Positions 37,283-46,069 of a stretch of 64,000 bases of DNA are shown one piece after another (position 1 is the first letter of the stretch; the number at the start of each line of letters is the position of its first letter). Source of the stretch: Candidatus Yonathbacteria bacterium RIFCSPLOWO2_01_FULL_47_33b (lineage in GTDB: Bacteria > Patescibacteriota > Minisyncoccia > Phycocordibacterales > UBA1550). The stretch lies in NCBI GenBank assembly GCA_001823575.1, contig MHUW01000007.1, positions 24,223 through 88,222 on the forward strand, given 5' to 3'. The position numbers were made by a program, and so were the translations under genes. Under the pieces are notes generated by a model. That model saw only the letters and a list, made by a program, of their open reading frames with translations. It did not search any database and had not been told where the DNA came from.

Positions 37283-37310
37283 TTGACTTTTTTTACAAAA
37301 AAGTTATAAT
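37283..37310 (+). promoter_or_regulatory. sigma70-like promoter TTGACT-16-TATAAT
   Basis: Hexamers read directly on the plus strand. Confidence 0.5.
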
Positions 37311-37317
37311 ATATAGG

Positions 37318-37395
37318 TCTTTCGGTTTTACCATTAAACCGTAAGGGTATTACATCCTAGGGTAGCCCTCCGCAAGGAGGGCTACTTTGTTTTCT
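37318..37395 (+). ncRNA. candidate small RNA (approx. 78 nt) between a consensus promoter and an intrinsic terminator
   Basis: Promoter at 37283-37310, terminator gtagccctcc-gcaa-ggagggctac + tttgttttc. No ORF. Confidence 0.3.
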
Positions 37396-37972
37396 CTTCT
37401 CGGTGTTTCAAATCACGTCCCCAGATATCTTCTTCGATTTTGAGAACATCAACGTACCCGTCCCCTCCTGTGCGTAATTCTTCAGAGACGTTGTTCTTTG
37501 AGGAATAAGCATACACCTTTTTACCATCTCGCTTCAAATAGGTCACCAAGGCGAGAAAATCAGAATCCCCAGAGAAAAAGATAGCCGTATCATATTTATT
37601 CTTGTAATGAATAACATCAATAGTCATCTCTACGTCCATGTTTCCTTTTTCCTCCACAATATCCCCGTCATCTGAATGAACAGTGATACGTTTGAGTTCT
37701 TTTTTGCGAACAGTAAAACCTAAACCTTTCTTAAGGTAAGTAAAAAATTTATGCTTACCGTCCAATGAATAATCGCGAGTTCCTTCTGCTGGATATGCTG
37801 TGTAATAAAATACATCAATAGTATCCGCTCCATGCTTTTCCTTCAAAAATTTCTTCAATTTTTCAAAATCAAACACCCGTCCCTTCACCTTTTGCGCAGC
37901 CCAAAGGTTCGACGCGTCAATGAAGACGTACACGGCATGCGGTTTCTTTTCATCAGCTGTCATAACAATCAT
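37382..37972 (-). CDS. NYN-domain (LabA-like, PIN-fold) protein
   Basis: VFIDASNLW...IFFSGDSDF signature. Confidence 0.8.
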   Translation of the reverse strand: MIVMTADEKKPHAVYVFIDASNLWAAQKVKGRVFDFEKLKKFLKEKHGADTIDVFYYTAYPAEGTRDYSLDGKHKFFTYLKKGLGFTVRKKELKRITVHSDDGDIVEEKGNMDVEMTIDVIHYKNKYDTAIFFSGDSDFLALVTYLKRDGKKVYAYSSKNNVSEELRTGGDGYVDVLKIEEDIWGRDLKHREEKTK

Positions 37973-38075
37973 TCTACCACATTCTCTGCGAACGCCTCCC
38001 TTAAATATGCTTTTTCGAGAAATTTGAGGTCGGCGAGTTTGGTGGTTTGGAGGGTGCGGAAGATGATAAAAATCC

Positions 38076-38576
38076 TTACTTCAACACAACCCCGAGGTCG
38101 TAGATATCAAGTTTTCCATCGTTGTTTAGGTCACCGCTGTCGAGTGTCCCTTGTTTTTTGTGCAGGTCGTAGATGAGTTTTAGGTATTTCCCAAGCACGA
38201 TGCGCGGAATCTCATACTGTCGTTCCTTGCCATACCATTCAAATGGGTCTCGGCCGCTCTTTTTGGCGTTACAACCGCGACATGCAAGCACTTGGTTATC
38301 AAACGTATCTATCGCGATTTTTACCTTAGGAATAATATGCTCCCATTCAAGCCCCTCCTCAGCGCTAGCACAATATGCACAAGCTTTTTCTTCGTTAAAG
38401 AATTTCTTGTTCTCTCGCAAAATGTTCGATGGTTGCATCTGTCCATCTTTCAATTTTTTATACGAATGCATAACAAACCCGTAATTCTTTCGGTCACCAA
38501 CCGTGCTCCCCGCAATGAGCTTTGCGTATTCCCAATAAATAAGGTCCCGAATTGTTTTTACTGAAGCGTGAGGCAT
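38076..38576 (-). CDS. HNH endonuclease with a dockerin-like C-terminal motif
   Basis: CAYC...EWEHIIP...LACRGCNAKK HNH motif. C-terminal DLNNDGKLDIYDL. Confidence 0.8.
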   Translation of the reverse strand: MPHASVKTIRDLIYWEYAKLIAGSTVGDRKNYGFVMHSYKKLKDGQMQPSNILRENKKFFNEEKACAYCASAEEGLEWEHIIPKVKIAIDTFDNQVLACRGCNAKKSGRDPFEWYGKERQYEIPRIVLGKYLKLIYDLHKKQGTLDSGDLNNDGKLDIYDLGVVLK

Positions 38577-38590
38577 GATATTTTAAATTC

Positions 38591-38962
38591 TCAGTCTGCT
38601 TTTTTGTTTCTCGGGATCTCACTTCGGGGTTCTCTTCGAGATTTATCAAAAATATTTTCCAGCCATCTTACTAGGAAATTATGATGGTCACCACCAACCT
38701 CATCATAACGCCTGCCTGTAAGGTTTCTTGTAACTGCCTTTAAAAATTCGGCTAGATGCTCGATTTGTAACTTAATATTAACATCCTTTGTAGAAGTAGC
38801 CAGGGAGCGCGTCGCTCTATATTCTGAATTAAATATATTCGCAAGCTCCTGTTTATGTTTTCTCTCCTTAATAAAGACTGAGAATTCGTAGGTAATAAAA
38901 ATAACATTAACAACAAATGAGACTATCTGGAGCCACTCTGGGCTTGGAATTATATTTGGCAT
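38591..38962 (-). CDS. hypothetical membrane-anchored protein
   Basis: N-terminal TM. Same operon as the HNH gene. Confidence 0.5.
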   Translation of the reverse strand: MPNIIPSPEWLQIVSFVVNVIFITYEFSVFIKERKHKQELANIFNSEYRATRSLATSTKDVNIKLQIEHLAEFLKAVTRNLTGRRYDEVGGDHHNFLVRWLENIFDKSRREPRSEIPRNKKAD

Positions 38963-38966
38963 AATT

Positions 38967-39140
38967 TTAGTGTTTGGTTGGGTCTACTAATTTATAAGAA
39001 GATCCTAGTTTTAAGATTGGCGGTAATGTTTTCCCTTTTACACACGTGACTTCAATTCCTGTTTCGCCTCCTCTTGGTCCTATTACTTCATACTGCCCTG
39101 ATCTTGGCACCGCTTGCCCTGGTTTAAATGTATTCTTCAT
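38967..39140 (-). CDS. small YjzC-like protein (57 aa), absent from the ORF track
   Basis: Manual translation MKNTFKPGQAVPRSGQYEVIGPRGGETGIEVTCVKGKTLPPI... matches the YjzC-like pattern KPG.KAP.SG.Y...G..GG...LPP. 4-5 nt intergenic gaps on both sides. Confidence 0.45.
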   Translation of the reverse strand: MKNTFKPGQAVPRSGQYEVIGPRGGETGIEVTCVKGKTLPPILKLGSSYKLVDPTKH

Positions 39141-39145
39141 AATTA

Positions 39146-39709
39146 TTATTCAGCTTCATTAAGTTCTTCCTTTTCCTTGCAATATTTTTCAGAAAAGTCC
39201 TTTAGCGCCACCTTGATGTCTTTAAGTTCACCATCCATTACTGCATCGTTTGTTTCTGGTGTTTTGGGAATAAGTAATTTTACTCCACCACCAAATTTAA
39301 ATTCAAAATTATGAGCAGAGTTATCGATTTCAGCAGAAAAACCTGTTTTATCCTTAGAAACAGCTACATTGGTTGATATTTTTTTAGAGCGAGAAATCAC
39401 TTTGGGTGACCAGTTTGCCATTTTTGTTGGATCAACCCCATATTTTTCATAATCAGAAAGAACTTTAGTTACACGTGACTTATAAGTTGCCAGTGAGCTT
39501 GCGCTGAAGTTTTTGTTTTTTGAAAATACGTTCTGGTAAATTTGCTCGATGTTTTTGCTAAATACGTCTATCGAATTGCGCTCCTCTTCATTTAATACTG
39601 CCTCAAACAGCTTCAGTGCTGTTTTAAGTGCCATACCTGTATTGTCAGGGTATTTTCTGCTCTTGACCGCTCTGTCTATAAACTCATATAGATCTTGAAT
39701 TTTTTTCAT
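39146..39709 (-). CDS. hypothetical protein
   Basis: First gene of a 4-gene minus-strand operon downstream of the RM gene. Confidence 0.5.
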   Translation of the reverse strand: MKKIQDLYEFIDRAVKSRKYPDNTGMALKTALKLFEAVLNEEERNSIDVFSKNIEQIYQNVFSKNKNFSASSLATYKSRVTKVLSDYEKYGVDPTKMANWSPKVISRSKKISTNVAVSKDKTGFSAEIDNSAHNFEFKFGGGVKLLIPKTPETNDAVMDGELKDIKVALKDFSEKYCKEKEELNEAE

Positions 39710-39851
39710 GATATTTTTGGGGTTAATTAGTAACTCCTAAATGCTATCACAACTCAACAATATAAGTCAAGTGATAATATAAACAGATTTGTGTATAATC
39801 TGTTTATATGTGGTTTTTAAAGGGTTTTATGTTATTAAAGTTTTATTTGGA

Positions 39852-42800
39852 CTACTTATCAACATTTTTAATTGCAATCATAATCCTATCCGTTTCAACC
39901 AGTGCTACAATCATTTTTTGATAGTGTTCGATGTCTGTGTTGGAGAGTTTGCGGGATTGGCGGTCCTTGAGCCATTTTTGAGCAGGCTGATAGCCACCGA
40001 TGTAGAAATTCCAGGCGACTTCAGGAACATTGCCAAAATACTGCGTGTCATTGATGTACACATTGCCATCTTTGTATTTTGGATATTTCGCCTCGACGGT
40101 GTCGCTTCCCGCCTGAGGAAATGTCGTGATGAAGTTTTTGAGCTTTGGTGATTCCAAAAGATGTAGTGCGCGGAGTTCACCACCGAGCGCAACAAGCTTT
40201 TTGAACGACTCAGTATCTTGAGGATAAGGAACACGCGGAAAATTAATCTTCAAAAACTCTTTATATTTTTCGCGGTAACTTGGTGAGTGCAAAGCGGCAT
40301 AGATGTAATCAAAAATATCTTCGGGGGTTGTCTTGCCGACAATCTTTTCTATTTCATCAACAATTTCTTTTTTGAGGTTCGGTGTTTTTAAGCCGTCTTC
40401 GGTGTAGAGATAGAGGGGGAAAGTATAAGCACCTTCCTTCGTCTGCAAAGAAACGGTACATCTATCAACGAGTGTTTTTGTTAAAAAAATGTGTTTAAAA
40501 TCAGAGCTGCTTTGCTGCTTGGAAACCAGCAGGGCTAAATTATCTTTACCAACCAAATGTTTGTAAACTTTATATCCAGAACGACTAATCAGCTCTGGGT
40601 CATAATAGATCCACACAAAACCAAACGGTCTATACTGCTCTAACTGTATGTAATTTTCATCAAACAACTTCCCTTTAATTCGTTCCGTTAATTTATATCC
40701 ACTTGAGTCGACCACTCGATAAGTAGATTTAAAACTACCACTGTAATTATTTGATAGAAGTTCTTGAATTTTCTTTGTGAGTTTACTTTTATCAAAATCT
40801 GTGAAGAGCGGGTCTCGATCAGTCTGAACACCAGAATTCGAAATCTGAAATAACTCATCAACCTTAAAACCTTTCTCATATTCTTCATTCGCACCAAAAT
40901 CTTTCGGCACAAAAAAATAGTACGGCTCAGAATATTCAAGTTTCTGCCATTTAATATTTTCTACCGACCCAGCATCAAGTGCCTCGAACTTTACTTTTTG
41001 TTTTCCGTAGAGTTCGGTGTGGTACATATCTGCCAACCGCTTTTTCTTTCCGCTTTTCTTTACGAACAGAGAGATAGATACACCCTGTTGAATAGCGAAA
41101 ACGTTTTCGTCCTTCCCTCCGTCAGGTGCTACTTCTTTCTTTTTTGCATTGCCGTGCAGGTCGATAATATAAATCGAGTCAAATGTTTCGAGCAAGTGTT
41201 TGCGCATTTGACGGTGCGTGATTCCGTCGATGAATGAGTTGTTCGTAATCATACCAACAATCCCCTCACCATTTTTCTCAATTAAGTCCTCAGTAAAACG
41301 AATGAATTTTATATAATCATCGTCAAGGTTGATTTTACGCTCGTTCAAATCTTTTTTGTATTCCTTGATCAATTCTGAAATATGTTCACCCTTGTTTTGC
41401 GAGCTGACATTATAGGGCGGGTTGCCCATCACGACCATGATCGGCAATTCGTTTTTTACGCGGTTTGCTTGGTTGGACTCTTCAGTGATTGCTTTACCGA
41501 GACCGATGCTTGAAAATAAGGTGTTTTCTTCTGACTCGCCTTTTTCGAGCGAGTTGGTTAGGTACACACCGAGGCGCGTACTCTCGTTAATATTTGCGCC
41601 AGACTCTTTGATCGTCGAAGAAAGTTTGAGGTGTGCGATAGTGTACGACGCCATCATAAGTTCAAAGCCATGAAGGCGCGGGAGTAGGTCTTCGTTCACA
41701 TAATTGTTCCACCTCCCCTCTTGCCCTGCAAATGATTTTTGGATGTGCTGTATCGCTTCATTCAAAAATGTCCCCGTGCCTGTTGCGGGGTCGAGTACTT
41801 GGACTTTGTGCACCGACACTTTGTGTTTCTTGCCTTGCACCTCTTTCATTATTTCGATTTTTGAATTTTCGGCGAGGCCTTGCGCAAGACCAAACTCTTT
41901 TTTCAAAATGTCATCTACGGCGCGAACAATGAACCGCACCACAGGGAGTGGGGTGTAGAACACGCCCATCTTTTTGCGCTCGGCAGGGTCATACTCCTGC
42001 AAGAAGTCTTCGTAAAAATGAATGATGGGGTCGCGACTGTCGTCCTTGCCCACTTTGTAGTAGTTATGCACGATTGCCTCTACGTCGGCATTAGTAAACT
42101 CTTCACAAAGTTCGTTTACAATAAACTCAATACGTGGGTCAAACGACGAGCCGGCGATGTGGTCAAAAAAATGGCGAAGAAACGGATTGGACGCTGGGAC
42201 TAAATCACGCGCTTCCCTGCGCGAAAAATCCTCTGGTGTATCGTCATAGTACCTTGCAACAAAAAGCCCGTACACGAGCGTCTGTGCATACATATCGGCA
42301 AACTTTTCCTTGTCGAGGTCGGCAAGTAAGAGCTTTTTGATAACCTCGTAGACAGAGAGTAGGTTTTCATTTTTTGCGTTGTCTTCTTGCGCAAGAAAAA
42401 CCTTTACATTGTCGCGGATACGGCGCGCCTTGCCAGCCATCACCTTTGCCAAGACTGAGCCAGACTTTATCGGCTCTTTTGATTCGGTGATGAAGCCGCT
42501 AATTGTGTCCTCGAGAAGCTTGAACGTTTCCTCGTTTGAAACTATTTCTTTTTTGTCGAGCTTTGCGATAACAACCGCCTCGCCGTATCGTGTAGCATTT
42601 TGATAAAAACGAAACTCAAGACAGTTGGTAAGAATAATATTTGAGTATCCGTAATACCTACCCATTTGTTCGCTTTTTTCTATCTCGTCAAGTGAAATAT
42701 TAAGGTCCTTTGCTTCTGCATATGCAACAACGGTCTTCCCTTTAGTAAAGACGAAATCCGGTGCGCCATACTCGCTTCGTTTTGGTTCGTTGTGAACTTT

Positions 42801-42920
42801 TAATTCGGTGATTTTTTCAAACAACTCTTGAAGCGCGGGGCGGTACGAGTGCTCGGTAGCATGTCCGCTTGCGTGCGTTTCAGCGACTTTTTGTATGAAA
42901 TTTTTTACAGTTTGACTCAT
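39852..42920 (-). CDS. Type IIG restriction-modification enzyme, MmeI-like (nuclease + gamma-class N6-adenine MTase + TRD)
   Basis: N-terminal PDFVF...AYAEAKD nuclease motif. MTase motif I VLDPATGTGTFL and motif IV NPPY. Length about 1000 aa. The track start 42959 is not ATG, so the ATG at 42920 is preferred. Confidence 0.85.
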   Translation of the reverse strand: MSQTVKNFIQKVAETHASGHATEHSYRPALQELFEKITELKVHNEPKRSEYGAPDFVFTKGKTVVAYAEAKDLNISLDEIEKSEQMGRYYGYSNIILTNCLEFRFYQNATRYGEAVVIAKLDKKEIVSNEETFKLLEDTISGFITESKEPIKSGSVLAKVMAGKARRIRDNVKVFLAQEDNAKNENLLSVYEVIKKLLLADLDKEKFADMYAQTLVYGLFVARYYDDTPEDFSRREARDLVPASNPFLRHFFDHIAGSSFDPRIEFIVNELCEEFTNADVEAIVHNYYKVGKDDSRDPIIHFYEDFLQEYDPAERKKMGVFYTPLPVVRFIVRAVDDILKKEFGLAQGLAENSKIEIMKEVQGKKHKVSVHKVQVLDPATGTGTFLNEAIQHIQKSFAGQEGRWNNYVNEDLLPRLHGFELMMASYTIAHLKLSSTIKESGANINESTRLGVYLTNSLEKGESEENTLFSSIGLGKAITEESNQANRVKNELPIMVVMGNPPYNVSSQNKGEHISELIKEYKKDLNERKINLDDDYIKFIRFTEDLIEKNGEGIVGMITNNSFIDGITHRQMRKHLLETFDSIYIIDLHGNAKKKEVAPDGGKDENVFAIQQGVSISLFVKKSGKKKRLADMYHTELYGKQKVKFEALDAGSVENIKWQKLEYSEPYYFFVPKDFGANEEYEKGFKVDELFQISNSGVQTDRDPLFTDFDKSKLTKKIQELLSNNYSGSFKSTYRVVDSSGYKLTERIKGKLFDENYIQLEQYRPFGFVWIYYDPELISRSGYKVYKHLVGKDNLALLVSKQQSSSDFKHIFLTKTLVDRCTVSLQTKEGAYTFPLYLYTEDGLKTPNLKKEIVDEIEKIVGKTTPEDIFDYIYAALHSPSYREKYKEFLKINFPRVPYPQDTESFKKLVALGGELRALHLLESPKLKNFITTFPQAGSDTVEAKYPKYKDGNVYINDTQYFGNVPEVAWNFYIGGYQPAQKWLKDRQSRKLSNTDIEHYQKMIVALVETDRIMIAIKNVDK

Positions 42921-42957
42921 AAAAAGTAGGAGTGTTAACAGTTCCCAGTATACCTCC

Positions 42958-42990
42958 AATCAATCTTTAATACAAAAGCCCCAATCGGGG
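42958..42990 (-). terminator. terminator after the MazG-like gene
   Basis: gccccgattggggc followed by ttttgtatt on the minus strand. Confidence 0.55.
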
Positions 42991-42997
42991 CGCTTGT

Positions 42998-43348
42998 TTA
43001 CAGCTTCGTATACTTCGTATGCTTCCCTTTGGCTTTTTCGACGGGGTATTTGGCTTTGTTTTTCTCTATCTTTTTCTCGTGGGCGTCGGCGATGTCGATG
43101 CCGAGGTCGTGACTCATCAAAAGGACCCACGAGAGCACATCCGCGAGCTCCTCGCCTATCTCCTCTTTACCCTCTTTTACATACACCTCTATTTCCTCTT
43201 TGTTTTTCCACTGGAAATGCTCCAGCACCTCGGCTGCCTCGAGCGAGAGCGATATTGCGCAGTCCTTGGGGTTGTGGAACTGCTGCCAGTCGCGTTCATC
43301 CCGAAACTTGGTAATCTCCTCCGTTAATTTTTGAATTGAATTAGGCAT
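42998..43348 (-). CDS. MazG-like nucleotide pyrophosphohydrolase (small all-alpha NTP-PPase)
   Basis: EEI..F...R.W..FH.PK...SL..E..E.LE and EE..D MazG-type motifs. 2-nt gap from the upstream gene. Confidence 0.8.
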   Translation of the reverse strand: MPNSIQKLTEEITKFRDERDWQQFHNPKDCAISLSLEAAEVLEHFQWKNKEEIEVYVKEGKEEIGEELADVLSWVLLMSHDLGIDIADAHEKKIEKNKAKYPVEKAKGKHTKYTKL

Positions 43349-43350
43349 TT

Positions 43351-44409
43351 TTATTGTAGGGATTTTTTTGCTTCATTTTTTGCACGCTCAACCATAAATT
43401 TAACGGCTTCGTTCATATTGGTGTCCTGGATTACAATATCCGGCCGTTTTTCCTGAAATACGCGGTAGACCTCATCAGCAAATGCTTGCCCAATCATCGG
43501 AACACGATCATAATCCATCACGATTATTCTGAATTTCTCAAGCCCCGACAATACACGCCGAGCCTGAGAACGAGAAATATGCACACCACCCATAGTGTAC
43601 AAGCGGACTCGAATCTCTGTTTTATCAAACCCATAATCGCTATCTTCAGCAAGGTTAGTATACTTCTTAAAAATATCGTTCAAATGGTGTTTGTCTTTTA
43701 TATTGATCTTGAAACTCACCTTCGTCCCTTTTTTGATTCCCTTTATTTTTTTAACGAAGATGTCTTTAATTTTGTTATCCGCAATATATTGATACCCGTA
43801 GCTATCAAGTACAAAAAGGTCCCCGACTTTTGATGTGAAGAAAATACCCTCACCTGAATGAAGTTTGGGCGCTGTGGTCATTTTTCCTTTTAAAAGGTCC
43901 TGAATTGCTTCAATCTCAGAGTTAAGGTTGCGTTTACGCATAATGTTACGGTATACACCAACGCCGTAGTCATCAATAACAAAAGAAAGCTCGTTGTCTT
44001 TCAGTAGTACCGTAACCTGAATTATTTCTGACTTGGAATGTTCGATAGCATTATTCAACATTTCTGAAAATGCGAACGTAAAAATACTTTTTATATTTTC
44101 TGGAAGTTTTTTAAACGGTAAAAATGAGCGCTCAACATCATCAAGGACTTTGTGCTCCTCGAGAGATTTGTTTTCTAATTTTTTGGTGTACCTATTTTCA
44201 ATAGTGTCTGGATGGGAATCAGCGTATTCTGGCAAAACATACGCGGCATTGCGAGTCGATCCTATTTTTATAAGTTTTCCTTCGGCGACAAGTTCAGACA
44301 GCATTTTTGAAACATACTGCCTCGTAACACTAAAAGCCGCCACAAAATAGGCACTTTTAAGAAGCCCTTTCTGTTTTGCTATCTTGAGTATCTTTTCCTT
44401 GTTCAGCAT
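43351..44409 (-). CDS. wHTH - GHKL ATPase-like - DUF4325 (STAS-like) protein
   Basis: N-terminal HTH, central FSEMLNNAIEHS (HATPase_c-like) and C-terminal RIIVMDYDRV...GQAFADEV (DUF4325-like). The track starts at TTG 44421. Confidence 0.6.
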   Translation of the reverse strand: MLNKEKILKIAKQKGLLKSAYFVAAFSVTRQYVSKMLSELVAEGKLIKIGSTRNAAYVLPEYADSHPDTIENRYTKKLENKSLEEHKVLDDVERSFLPFKKLPENIKSIFTFAFSEMLNNAIEHSKSEIIQVTVLLKDNELSFVIDDYGVGVYRNIMRKRNLNSEIEAIQDLLKGKMTTAPKLHSGEGIFFTSKVGDLFVLDSYGYQYIADNKIKDIFVKKIKGIKKGTKVSFKINIKDKHHLNDIFKKYTNLAEDSDYGFDKTEIRVRLYTMGGVHISRSQARRVLSGLEKFRIIVMDYDRVPMIGQAFADEVYRVFQEKRPDIVIQDTNMNEAVKFMVERAKNEAKKSLQ

Positions 44410-44462
44410 ATTGTAAACCAATTGTAAACCAATGCTTTTTAATTGTCAACTAATTGTCAACC
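44410..44462 (-). promoter_or_regulatory. promoter built from tandem 11-bp repeats (2x TTGACAATTAG, 2x TTTACAATTGG) giving TTGACA-17-TACAAT, leaderless
   Basis: Repeats read directly. The -10 lies immediately upstream of the ATG. Confidence 0.55.
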
Positions 44463-44513: not shown

Positions 44514-45769
44514 TTAAAGAAACAACAAATCCCTATCCAAATCATCGGACTCGGTGCCTTTTGTTTTGTGTTTGAGGGCGGTGTGAGTTGAAGCGAGGTA
44601 CACCACGCGCTTGCCGAGTTTGTCTTCTAGTGTATCAATGCGTTTGTGGATGGCATCAAACTTGTCGGCCTTGATCGTCCCACCGAACAAATCCGCCTGT
44701 GAAGCATGTCCGGGAACAAGGTCGTGGAGGGTTACTCCTGTGGTGCGGTACAGAACGCCTCCTGTATGTATTTTTTCAAGCTCCGCATGCGCGAGCGCCA
44801 TGAGAATCTCGGGGGAATTTGAAGGTACGGAAAGTGGTATCGAACACGTTACGATTTTGAAATTTTGTGTCTTCAGAAAAATAGAGATTTTCTTGGGCAC
44901 CAATTCATAGTGTCGCGCTTTTTTGCAGGCGTCCTCTATGTTTTTTGAAAGCTGCGACCAGAGAAATGTTTTGTCATTGGTCGCGGGGTGAAATGTTAGC
45001 GTCTTTTGTATGGACGAGTAAACTGTTTTAACCTCTGGGTCTACCTCCATAACCGACTCGCCGCCCAACTCGCGCCAGATAGCTTCGTAGGGTTTTGAGA
45101 GATTTTGTCTGACCCAAGAAATATCTTTCATACTAAAATCTTTGGCAGTATACACGGCCCTCTTGGTGAGAAACTCTGCTGTTTTGGGTCCAATGCCCCA
45201 AACTTTCTTGATTGGTGTCTTTGTGAGGAAATCCGGCGCCGTACTTGTCTCGATGACGGTCAGACCATTTGGCTTGACCCAGTTGGATGCAACCTTGGCA
45301 AGCACTTTTGTTGGCGCGAGACCAATCGACACCGAGAGCCCGAGCTCTTCGTTTACTTCTTTTTTAATACGCTCCGCCATTTGCAGATAGGTCATCTTGA
45401 GTGGTGGCTCGAGTCCCGTGAGATCGGCAAAGCATTCATCAATACTATATTCCTCGACATCATCGGCATACCTGCGCACAATATCAAACATCTTGCTCGA
45501 ATAAAGTGCATATGACTTGTAGTCTCCTGGCAGAATGATGACGCTCGGGAAGTCTCTTTTGACTTTGAATATCGGCATACCGCGAATGATGCCGAGCGCT
45601 TTTGCTTCGTACGACAGCGCCGATACAATCCCCGCTCCTCGCCCGTCACCACCGGCAGACCCTTTAGCGTCGGGTCCTTTGCGACCTCCACCCCCACAAA
45701 AAACGCATCTCCATCAATATGGAAAATCACCTTTTGTTTTATGAGATTATTTTGAGCGAGTGTCTTCAC
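44514..45769 (-). pseudogene. dinB: DNA polymerase IV (Y-family) interrupted by a -1 frameshift in a C4/G4 homopolymer
   Basis: The N-terminal frame (IFHIDGDAFFVGVEV...GEERG) and the downstream frame (IVSALSYEAKALGIIRGMPIFKVK...) are both DinB-like. The junction is at cccc 45630-45633. One extra C/G would fuse the frames. Confidence 0.75.
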
Positions 45770-45793
45770 TCACTGTATTATACCAAATTCTCT

Positions 45794-45814
45794 GACTGGG
45801 GAACTTGGTCCAAG
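45794..45814. repeat. degenerate direct repeat of the tRNA-Gln 3' end (14/14 bp ACTGGGGAACTTGG, then a T-loop-deleted remainder)
   Basis: Identical 14-mer at 45794-45807 and 45998-46011. Confidence 0.6.
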
Positions 45815-45957
45815 AGTCTGCGGCCAAGCCGTGAATTTTGTAATTCAGAATCTGCTGATTCAGGATCGCCTCTCGCTCTGCTGAGCTCGAAACCTACGTC
45901 CTCTCTTCGAGGACTGCGGCCCGCGGTTCAATCCCAAGTTCTTCAACCGTTGTAAAT

Positions 45958-45992
45958 AAAAAGCACCCTCATGACAAGGGTGCTTTTTATTT
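45958..45992 (-). terminator. terminator downstream of tRNA-Gln
   Basis: aaaaagcaccc-ttgtcatga-gggtgcttttt. Confidence 0.7.
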
Positions 45993-45998
45993 ACAAAA

Positions 45999-46069
45999 CT
46001 GGGGAACTTGGGATCGAACCAAGATTGACGGCTTCAAAGGCCGCTGTCCTACCATTAGACGATTCCCCA
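45999..46069 (-). tRNA. tRNA-Gln (anticodon TTG)
   Basis: Manual cloverleaf: acceptor UGGGGAA/UUCCCCA with U1-A72, D-arm GUCU-AAUGGUA-GGAC, anticodon arm GCGGC-CUUUGAA-GCCGU, T-arm CUUGG-UUCGAUC-CCAAG, discriminator G. CCA is not encoded. Confidence 0.85.

What the first reader, a model, noticed from the sequence alone, without database searches (positions are those of the whole stretch)
45578..45769. dinB split by a -1 frameshift inside a C4/G4 homopolymer
Both reading frames flanking cccc 45630-45633 encode contiguous DinB sequence (GEERG | IVSALSYEAKALGIIRGMPIFKVK). A fifth C/G would restore a full-length Y-family polymerase. This could be a sequencing or assembly homopolymer error, a recent pseudogenisation inside the accessory island, or slippage-based phase variation of an error-prone polymerase.
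Basis: seen in the sequence. Interest (0 to 1): 0.5.

Follow-up and report, generated by a model that had tools for sequence, protein, structure and literature searches.

The report
Frameshifted dinB pseudogene in Yonathbacteria
A translesion DNA polymerase gene (dinB-like, Y family) in an uncultured groundwater bacterium has lost one base in a short run of G, which breaks the gene; the lesion is real and recent, but this is an ordinary pseudogene and not a switch.

Summary
On the minus strand a Y-family (DinB/Pol IV-like) polymerase gene runs from GTG 45769 to the stop at 44514. It changes frame at GGGG (cccc 45630-45633). Adding one base gives a 418-aa protein with complete IMS, IMS_HHH and IMS_C domains. 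That is the length of most of its closest relatives, and the junction peptide (VVTGEERG|IVSALSYEAK) is identical in the 14 cluster relatives that cover the site.

It is not an assembly error. All eight contigs of this strain that I read, each from a different data set and from several assemblers, carry G4. The restored protein is absent from a 15-billion-protein collection.

It is not a phase-variation tract. Two Yonathbacteria relatives have CGG GGG ATT (G5). Across 77 species the run is 2-5 G, set only by synonymous codon choice. All 80 representative orthologues are intact.

There is no canonical slippery heptamer and no downstream structure (z = 0.15), so programmed frameshifting is unsupported.

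dN/dS of the restored gene (0.04-0.06) is close to that among intact genes (0.038), and there is no second lesion, so the loss is recent.

dinB is syntenic and has the genome's GC. It lies beside the low-GC defence island, not inside it.

Verdict: a real, recent one-base deletion; ordinary.

The parts
44514..45769 (-). Whole dinB-like (Y-family DNA polymerase IV-like) pseudogene, from GTG start 45769 to stop 44514. It is 1256 nt, one base short of the 1257 nt of intact orthologues.
   Evidence: The restored translation is 418 aa with IMS, IMS_HHH and IMS_C. Its best NCBIfam and PDB matches are all DNA polymerase IV.
45630..45633 (-). GGGG run (cccc on the + strand) at the Arg46-Gly47 junction, the site of the one-base deletion. 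Sister Yonathbacteria have GGGGG here (CGG GGG ATT).
45629..45769 (-). In-frame N-terminal part (residues 1-47). It carries HIDGDAFF, which aligns with the conserved HVDMDAFF motif of solved Pol IV (7yll).
   Evidence: and the alignment to 7yll_A.
45392..45628 (-). Out-of-frame tail (78 codons, LYRRCRTKQ...) that a ribosome starting at the native GTG would read before its stop at 45392.
44514..45578 (-). The 354-aa ORF that gene callers report, deposited as OHA84098.1, locus tag A2937_02790, 'hypothetical protein' / UmuC domain-containing protein. It starts at internal Met65 and lacks the first 64 residues, including HIDGDAFF and SYEAK.
45777..45788 (-). ATTTGGTATAAT, an extended -10-like box that ends 7 nt before the GTG start. 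It is invariant in three Yonathbacteria. It is a probable dinB promoter and suggests a (near-)leaderless mRNA (inferred).
   Evidence: The simple sigma-70 scan did not list it, because there is no -35 match.

Best explanation
This is a genuine, recently fixed one-base deletion in the dinB-like gene of one Candidatus Yonathbacteria population. The most likely event is replication slippage that shortened an ancestral G5 run (CGG GGG ATT) to G4. Translation from the native GTG now yields 47 correct residues followed by 78 out-of-frame residues. The only long remaining ORF, 354 aa from Met65, lacks the N-terminal 64 residues. Those residues carry the HIDGDAFF motif, which aligns with the conserved HVDMDAFF motif of solved Pol IV, and the SYEAK segment. 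The polymerase is therefore expected to be inactive.

Shown: the lesion, its presence in every assembly of this strain that was read, intact orthologues in all relatives examined, and the lack of any second lesion. Inferred: the direction G5 to G4, slippage as the cause, and loss of activity. Assigning a catalytic role to the aspartates in HIDGDAFF rests on established Y-family polymerase knowledge, not on a test here.
For: The frame change and the exact restoration with one base are shown. The same G4 allele is present in all 8 contigs of this strain that were read, from 8 data sets built with different assemblers. The exact restored 418-aa protein is absent from the 15-billion-protein collection, while the truncated 354-aa product is present on 11 contigs. 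Sister Yonathbacteria (RIFOXYC2_FULL_47_9 and RIFCSPHIGHO2_02_FULL_44_14) have G5 at the site. All 80 species-representative orthologues and all 14 cluster members that cover the site are intact there. Pairwise dN/dS of the restored gene against relatives is 0.039-0.064, compared with 0.038 among intact genes, and there is no further stop or indel in 1257 nt. No other split gene is seen in the window. The motifs upstream of the break align with conserved Pol IV motifs.
Against: No reads could be inspected, so a minority G5 subpopulation below assembly sensitivity cannot be excluded. Some of the eight assemblies may share read sets; only the three Logan runs are certainly separate libraries. 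dS to the nearest relatives is large (0.7-1.3), so 'recent' is relative to species divergence and cannot be dated. Loss of activity is inferred, not measured.
Confidence: 0.85

Rival explanations
1. Sequencing or assembly error: the real genome has G5 and an intact dinB, and the consensus dropped one base in the homopolymer.
For: Homopolymers are a classic site of indel errors, and this is the only broken gene seen in the window, as a single random error would be.
Against: G4 is present in all 8 contigs read, from 8 data sets and at least three assembly pipelines: k141-named contigs (a naming typical of MEGAHIT), JGI, the ANAN16 scaffolds and Logan. Three of these are separate SRA runs. No G5 version of this allele was ever called as a protein. 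A 4-5 nt run is short for a systematic short-read indel error (my own knowledge).
Confidence: 0.03
2. Phase variation: the G tract is a contingency locus that switches dinB on and off by slipped-strand mispairing.
For: The lesion lies in a homopolymer, and one base restores the frame. Switching an error-prone polymerase would be a plausible way to modulate mutation rate.
Against: The tract is 4-5 nt. In a Neisseria survey, tracts of 8 nt or more were the ones predominantly variable, and C5 was below that study's search cut-off (PMC5084427). The tract is not conserved: at this Arg-Gly junction, 77 species have runs of 2 (31 species), 3 (22), 4 (16) or 5 (8) G by synonymous codon choice. The two closest relatives whose DNA was read have CGC GGT and CGC GGG. 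Only the OFF state was found for this strain in 8 data sets, and no ON allele is in the collection.
Confidence: 0.04
3. Programmed -1 ribosomal frameshifting or transcriptional slippage: full-length DinB is still made from the G4 allele, for example by P-site tRNA-Gly slipping from GGA back onto GGG.
For: A -1 shift at CGG GGA would give exactly the ancestral protein (read from the sequence). tRNA-Gly could re-pair on GGG. A GAGGAG Shine-Dalgarno-like stretch lies just upstream. The gene has no further decay.
Against: There is no canonical X XXY YYZ heptamer (G CGG GGA fails). The downstream 113 nt fold no better than shuffled sequence (z = 0.15). The zero frame stays open for 78 more codons. 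All relatives encode the protein in one frame, so there is no conservation of a recoding site. A Shine-Dalgarno-like element this close to the site is the geometry known to stimulate +1, not -1, shifting (my knowledge of prfB and dnaX). G4 is far shorter than the long A/T runs known for transcriptional slippage (my knowledge).
Confidence: 0.04
4. A functional truncated or split protein: the 354-aa product from Met65 has a new role, for example as a clamp-binding or DNA-binding protein without polymerase activity.
For: The 354-aa ORF is intact and keeps the IMS C-terminal half, HHH and little-finger domains and the conserved C-terminal DLDRDLLFL.
Against: No Shine-Dalgarno-like sequence precedes ATG 45578. 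The ORF sits inside the transcript of the broken gene. The same sequence conservation is expected simply from recent pseudogenisation. No relative encodes such a short form: the 394-aa and 325-aa cluster members are alternative start calls on unaltered DNA.
Confidence: 0.03

Closest known systems
DNA polymerase IV (DinB), Y-family translesion polymerase (Pfam IMS PF00817 + IMS_HHH PF11798 + IMS_C PF11799)
   Same: The restored protein covers the whole IMS domain (1-148 of 148), the HHH motif and the little-finger domain. Its best NCBIfam and PDB matches are all Pol IV (7yll_A E 1.6e-39, plus Dbh/Dpo4 and E. coli DinB structures). The conserved HIDGDAFF and SIDECF motifs align with those of solved Pol IV.
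   Different: In this genome the gene is interrupted by a one-base deletion. Even when restored, it scores below every NCBIfam Pol IV equivalog cut-off (239 bits against 399). It is therefore a divergent Patescibacteria branch of the DinB group, not a curated equivalog.
Homopolymer-tract contingency loci (slipped-strand phase variation, e.g. Neisseria, Haemophilus, Campylobacter)
   Same: It is a frameshift located in a G/C homopolymer within a coding region.
   Different: The tract is only 4-5 nt, against 8 nt or more for tracts found predominantly variable (PMC5084427). The tract is not conserved among relatives, and only one state is observed in 8 data sets.
Programmed -1 frameshifting (e.g. 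dnaX, IS element transposases)
   Same: A -1 shift would regenerate the full protein.
   Different: There is no slippery heptamer, no stimulatory structure and no conservation in relatives.
Young single-lesion pseudogenes in bacterial genomes
   Same: There is one disabling indel in a short mononucleotide run, otherwise intact sequence, a dN/dS close to that of functional orthologues, and intact orthologues in the relatives read.
   Different: Nothing notable. The only unusual point is that the host is a small-genome Patescibacteria (CPR) bacterium.

Membership tests
Y-family DNA polymerase, DinB/Pol IV branch | Complete IMS (palm/fingers/thumb) catalytic domain | tested here: met
   For the restored sequence, PF00817 matches residues 18-163 to profile positions 1-148 of 148, E 3.4e-43. 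In the genome as it stands, the domain is split between two frames.
Y-family DNA polymerase, DinB/Pol IV branch | Little-finger (IMS_C) domain and HHH motif | tested here: met
   PF11799 E 3.7e-15 and PF11798 E 6.6e-06, both above the gathering scores.
Y-family DNA polymerase, DinB/Pol IV branch | Conserved acidic active-site motifs (DxD near the N terminus; D-E in SIDE) | tested here: met
   HIDGDAFF aligns with HVDMDAFF, and SIDECF with SIDEAY, of 7yll_A. The catalytic role of these residues is from established knowledge. The first motif lies upstream of the frameshift and the second downstream, so no single product carries both.
Y-family DNA polymerase, DinB/Pol IV branch | Closer to Pol IV than to UmuC; reaches NCBIfam equivalog cut-off | tested here: inconclusive
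   The top seven NCBIfam hits are Pol IV models (best 239 bits) and UmuC scores 158 bits, but no model's curated cut-off (256-431 bits) is reached.
Y-family DNA polymerase, DinB/Pol IV branch | Uninterrupted reading frame encoding an active enzyme | tested here: not met
   There is a one-base deletion at 45630-45633. Enzyme activity itself cannot be tested with these tools.
Phase-variable contingency locus | Hypermutable repeat tract, long enough to slip at high rate (about 8 nt or more for homopolymers) | tested here: not met
   The tract is G4 here and G5 in the sister species. The threshold is from PMC5084427.
Phase-variable contingency locus | Both ON and OFF tract lengths observed within the population or among close strains | tested here: not met
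   All 8 contigs read are G4, and the restored allele is not in the collection. Minority variants in reads cannot be tested here.
Programmed -1 ribosomal frameshift site | Slippery heptamer X XXY YYZ in the zero frame | tested here: not met
   The sequence G CGG GGA does not fit the pattern.
Programmed -1 ribosomal frameshift site | Downstream stimulatory structure and conservation of the two-frame arrangement in relatives | tested here: not met
   The downstream fold has z-score 0.15. All 80 representative orthologues are single-frame.

The most novel reading that the evidence does not exclude
The G4 allele is not dead. Either low-level -1 slippage of tRNA-Gly on CGG-GGA (or rare G4-to-G5 reversion) provides a trickle of full-length error-prone polymerase, so this population runs a down-tuned mutator. 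Alternatively, loss of DinB was selected as an antimutator adaptation in a small-genome CPR bacterium.
Probability: 0.05. Interest if true: 0.5.

Novelty: already known. Interest (0 to 1): 0.12.

Why it matters
It matters little beyond bookkeeping. The GenBank record (OHA84098.1, 'hypothetical protein', 354 aa) should be read as the C-terminal remnant of a frameshifted Pol IV-like gene. Metabolic or repair reconstructions of this Yonathbacteria population should not count a functional translesion polymerase, while its sister species have one. It is also a clean example that a homopolymer frameshift in a metagenome-assembled genome can be validated without reads, by comparing independent assemblies of the same strain.

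Tried and rejected
1. I scanned JGI metagenome contigs and GTDB genome contigs for the site with a G4/G5-tolerant pattern. Both gave 0 hits.

2. A protein-based scan of metagenome contigs and of genome contigs showed that these collections simply do not hold this strain. The best hit was the 90%-identical sister species. They therefore say nothing about a G5 variant of this allele. The genome scan was still useful as a survey of 80 orthologues.

3. The 394-aa (P0124, P0128) and 325-aa (P0122) members of the protein cluster looked like possible further truncations. The DNA of P0124 (L011) and of P0122 (L095) shows they are only alternative start calls. L011 matches the intact L007 over the N-terminal region that was read, and L095 is the same G4 allele. 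P0128 has the same N-terminus as P0124, but its DNA was not read.

4. L003 seemed to be a 99%-identical sub-strain sharing the frameshift. Its 21 mismatches all lie at the two contig ends, outside dinB, so it gives no evidence of divergence after the break.

5. The overlapping ORF pair 16138-17727 / 17684-19789 was checked as a possible second frameshift. They are two different genes, G6PD and a GH15 glycosidase.

6. An Rfam search of the tRNA-dinB spacer found nothing beyond the tRNA.

7. P0132's contig, one of the two nearest relatives at 93% identity, could not be read because no DNA was available.

Full report
**Observation**

The + strand has cccc at exactly 45630-45633. The gene lies on the minus strand.

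- From GTG 45769 the frame reads VKTLAQNNLIKQKVIFHIDGDAFFVGVEVAKDPTLKGLPVVTGEERG. It then continues out of frame (LYRRCRTKQ...) for 78 codons to a stop at 45392.
- The frame offset by -1 reads ...IVSALSYEAKALGIIRGMPIFKVK... and stays open to the stop at 44514.
- A local tblastn of the restored protein against the window returns two segments: residues 1-48 in frame -1 and residues 24-408 in frame -3. There is no second copy in the window.
- Adding one G to the run gives a 1257-nt, 418-aa ORF. It matches Pfam IMS over the full profile (1-148 of 148, E 3.4e-43), IMS_HHH and IMS_C.

One refinement applies. The deleted base could formally be a G of an ancestral CGG GGG ATT or an A of an ancestral CGG GGA ATT, because both restore the same protein.

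**What the gene is**

- The restored protein's best NCBIfam hits are all DNA polymerase IV models. The best scores 239 bits and UmuC scores only 158 bits, but none reaches its curated equivalog cut-off.
- The best solved relatives are Pol IV/Dbh/Dpo4 structures, led by 7yll_A at E 1.6e-39.
- In that alignment HIDGDAFF pairs with HVDMDAFF, and SIDECF pairs with SIDEAY. These are the conserved acidic motifs of Y-family polymerases; their catalytic role is established knowledge, not tested here.
- The frameshift lies between the two motifs, so no single translation product carries both.
- The 354-aa ORF from Met65 (44514-45578) is what gene callers report. It is deposited as OHA84098.1, locus tag A2937_02790, 'hypothetical protein', from a Candidatus Yonathbacteria bacterium MAG.

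**Relatives**

- A search of 5.8 billion protein clusters found thousands of homologues, typically 401-437 aa. The nearest are 90-93% identical, and most of these are exactly 418 aa.
- The 14 members of the two 90% clusters that cover the site read VVTGEERGIVSALSYEAKALG across the junction.
- The short cluster members are not further truncations. P0124 (394 aa) is an alternative start call on DNA that matches the intact sister allele over the N-terminal region read. P0128 has the same N-terminus, but its DNA was not read. P0122 (325 aa) and P0125 (354 aa, one substitution) are the same G4 allele as the window.

**Is the lesion real?**

- The truncated product is on record on 11 contigs.
- I read eight contigs of this strain from eight data sets: ENA ERZ4903072, ERZ4903125, ERZ27254767 and ERZ28563641 (ANAN16-1 SAMN03842439); JGI 3300002105; and Logan assemblies of SRR2090153, SRR3989342 and SRR3989344.
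- All eight read GAGGAGCGGGGATTG, with four G. Within dinB seven are identical to the window, and L094 differs by the single base behind the one substitution in P0125.
- The exact restored 418-aa sequence is not in the 15-billion-sequence collection. No assembly therefore ever produced a G5 version of this allele.
- The window shows no other split gene. The one suspicious overlapping pair is G6PD next to a GH15 hydrolase.
- A consensus error is therefore very unlikely. What remains untested is a minority G5 subpopulation within the reads.

**Ancestral state and tract conservation**

- The sister species (RIFOXYC2_FULL_47_9; L007-L011, L014) and another Yonathbacteria (RIFCSPHIGHO2_02_FULL_44_14; L090) read CGG GGG ATT, which is G5.
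- The two closest relatives whose DNA could be read have CGC GGT ATA (L012) and CGC GGG ATT (L013).
- Across 77 GTDB species representatives in which the motif was located, the G run at this Arg-Gly junction is 2 nt in 31 species, 3 in 22, 4 in 16 and 5 in 8. The length is set only by synonymous codon choice.
- All 80 representatives are intact through the site.
- The tract is therefore short, is not conserved as a tract and never exceeds 5 nt. For comparison, a Neisseria survey found that homopolymers of 8 nt or more were the ones predominantly variable, and it treated C5 as below its search cut-off (PMC5084427).
- This argues against a contingency locus. The simple reading is one slippage deletion, G5 to G4.

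**Age of the lesion**

- Nei-Gojobori dN/dS of the restored gene against three relatives is 0.039-0.064.
- Among the three intact genes it is 0.038.
- dS is 0.7-1.3.
- There is no additional stop or indel.
- Almost all of the lineage's history was thus spent under strong purifying selection, so the break is recent on that scale.

**Recoding rival**

- A -1 shift at CGG GGA would regenerate the ancestral protein.
- However, G CGG GGA is not an X XXY YYZ heptamer.
- The downstream 113 nt fold no better than shuffled sequence (z = 0.15).
- The zero frame stays open for 78 codons.
- No relative uses two frames.
- I give this about 4%.

**Genomic context**

- The order Dus - small ORF - DnaX - tRNA-Gln - DinB is conserved in the sister species.
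- A MazG-like gene lies downstream of DinB in both species.
- The main dinB ORF has GC 0.47, close to that of most of the window.
- The genes just downstream have GC 0.35-0.44: an HATPase/DUF4325 protein, a Type ISP restriction-modification enzyme, and HNH and NYN proteins.
- The restriction-modification content of that block differs between relatives.
- dinB therefore sits at the border of a variable defence island and is not part of it.

**Verdict**

This is a real, recent, single-base deletion that inactivates a DinB-like translesion polymerase in one Yonathbacteria population. It is an ordinary young pseudogene, and the deposited record lists its C-terminal remnant as an ordinary protein. 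My confidence is about 0.85. The rivals are sequencing error at about 0.03, phase variation at about 0.04, recoding at about 0.04 and a functional truncated product at about 0.03. Interest is low.

Noticed in passing
window 45796-45808 and 45999-46011: The 13-nt 3' end of tRNA-Gln (CTGGGGAACTTGG on the + strand) is repeated 203 nt away, directly upstream of the dinB promoter box (2 matches against 0.05 expected). The sister species has the same arrangement, and there the second copy also keeps part of the T-arm. It looks like a partial tRNA duplication, an att-like scar of a former integration. The ~190-nt spacer matches no Rfam family.
   Followed up: partly
window 45777-45788 (minus strand): ATTTGGTATAAT is invariant in three Yonathbacteria and ends only 7 nt before the GTG start of dinB. 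This suggests an extended -10 promoter and a leaderless or near-leaderless mRNA.
   Followed up: no
window 42998-43348: The MazG-like gene is 91% nt identical to the sister species, while dinB and the flanking core genes are 80-85%. In relatives the MazG-like gene lies downstream of DinB and just ahead of a different restriction-modification type: Type ISP here, Type I in L007-L010 and Type III on the P0132 contig. This is a possibly conserved DinB / MazG-like anchor of a variable defence slot.
   Followed up: partly
window ~37300-44420: A low-GC block (0.35-0.44, against about 0.47 elsewhere) encodes an NYN-domain protein, an HNH endonuclease, hypothetical proteins, a 1035-aa Type ISP restriction-modification enzyme and an HATPase + DUF4325 (STAS-like) protein. 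It is probably a horizontally acquired defence island.
   Followed up: partly
window 45955-45995: A strong hairpin followed by a T-run (aaaaagcaccct-catgac-aagggtgcttttt) lies immediately 3' of tRNA-Gln on the minus strand. It reads as a terminator on either strand. It was seen in the sequence but was not listed by the simple terminator scan.
   Followed up: no
window 44514-45578 (public record OHA84098.1): The public record lists the 354-aa C-terminal remnant as an ordinary 'hypothetical protein' / UmuC domain-containing protein, not as a pseudogene. Other gene callers give a 325-aa version of the same DNA.
   Followed up: yes
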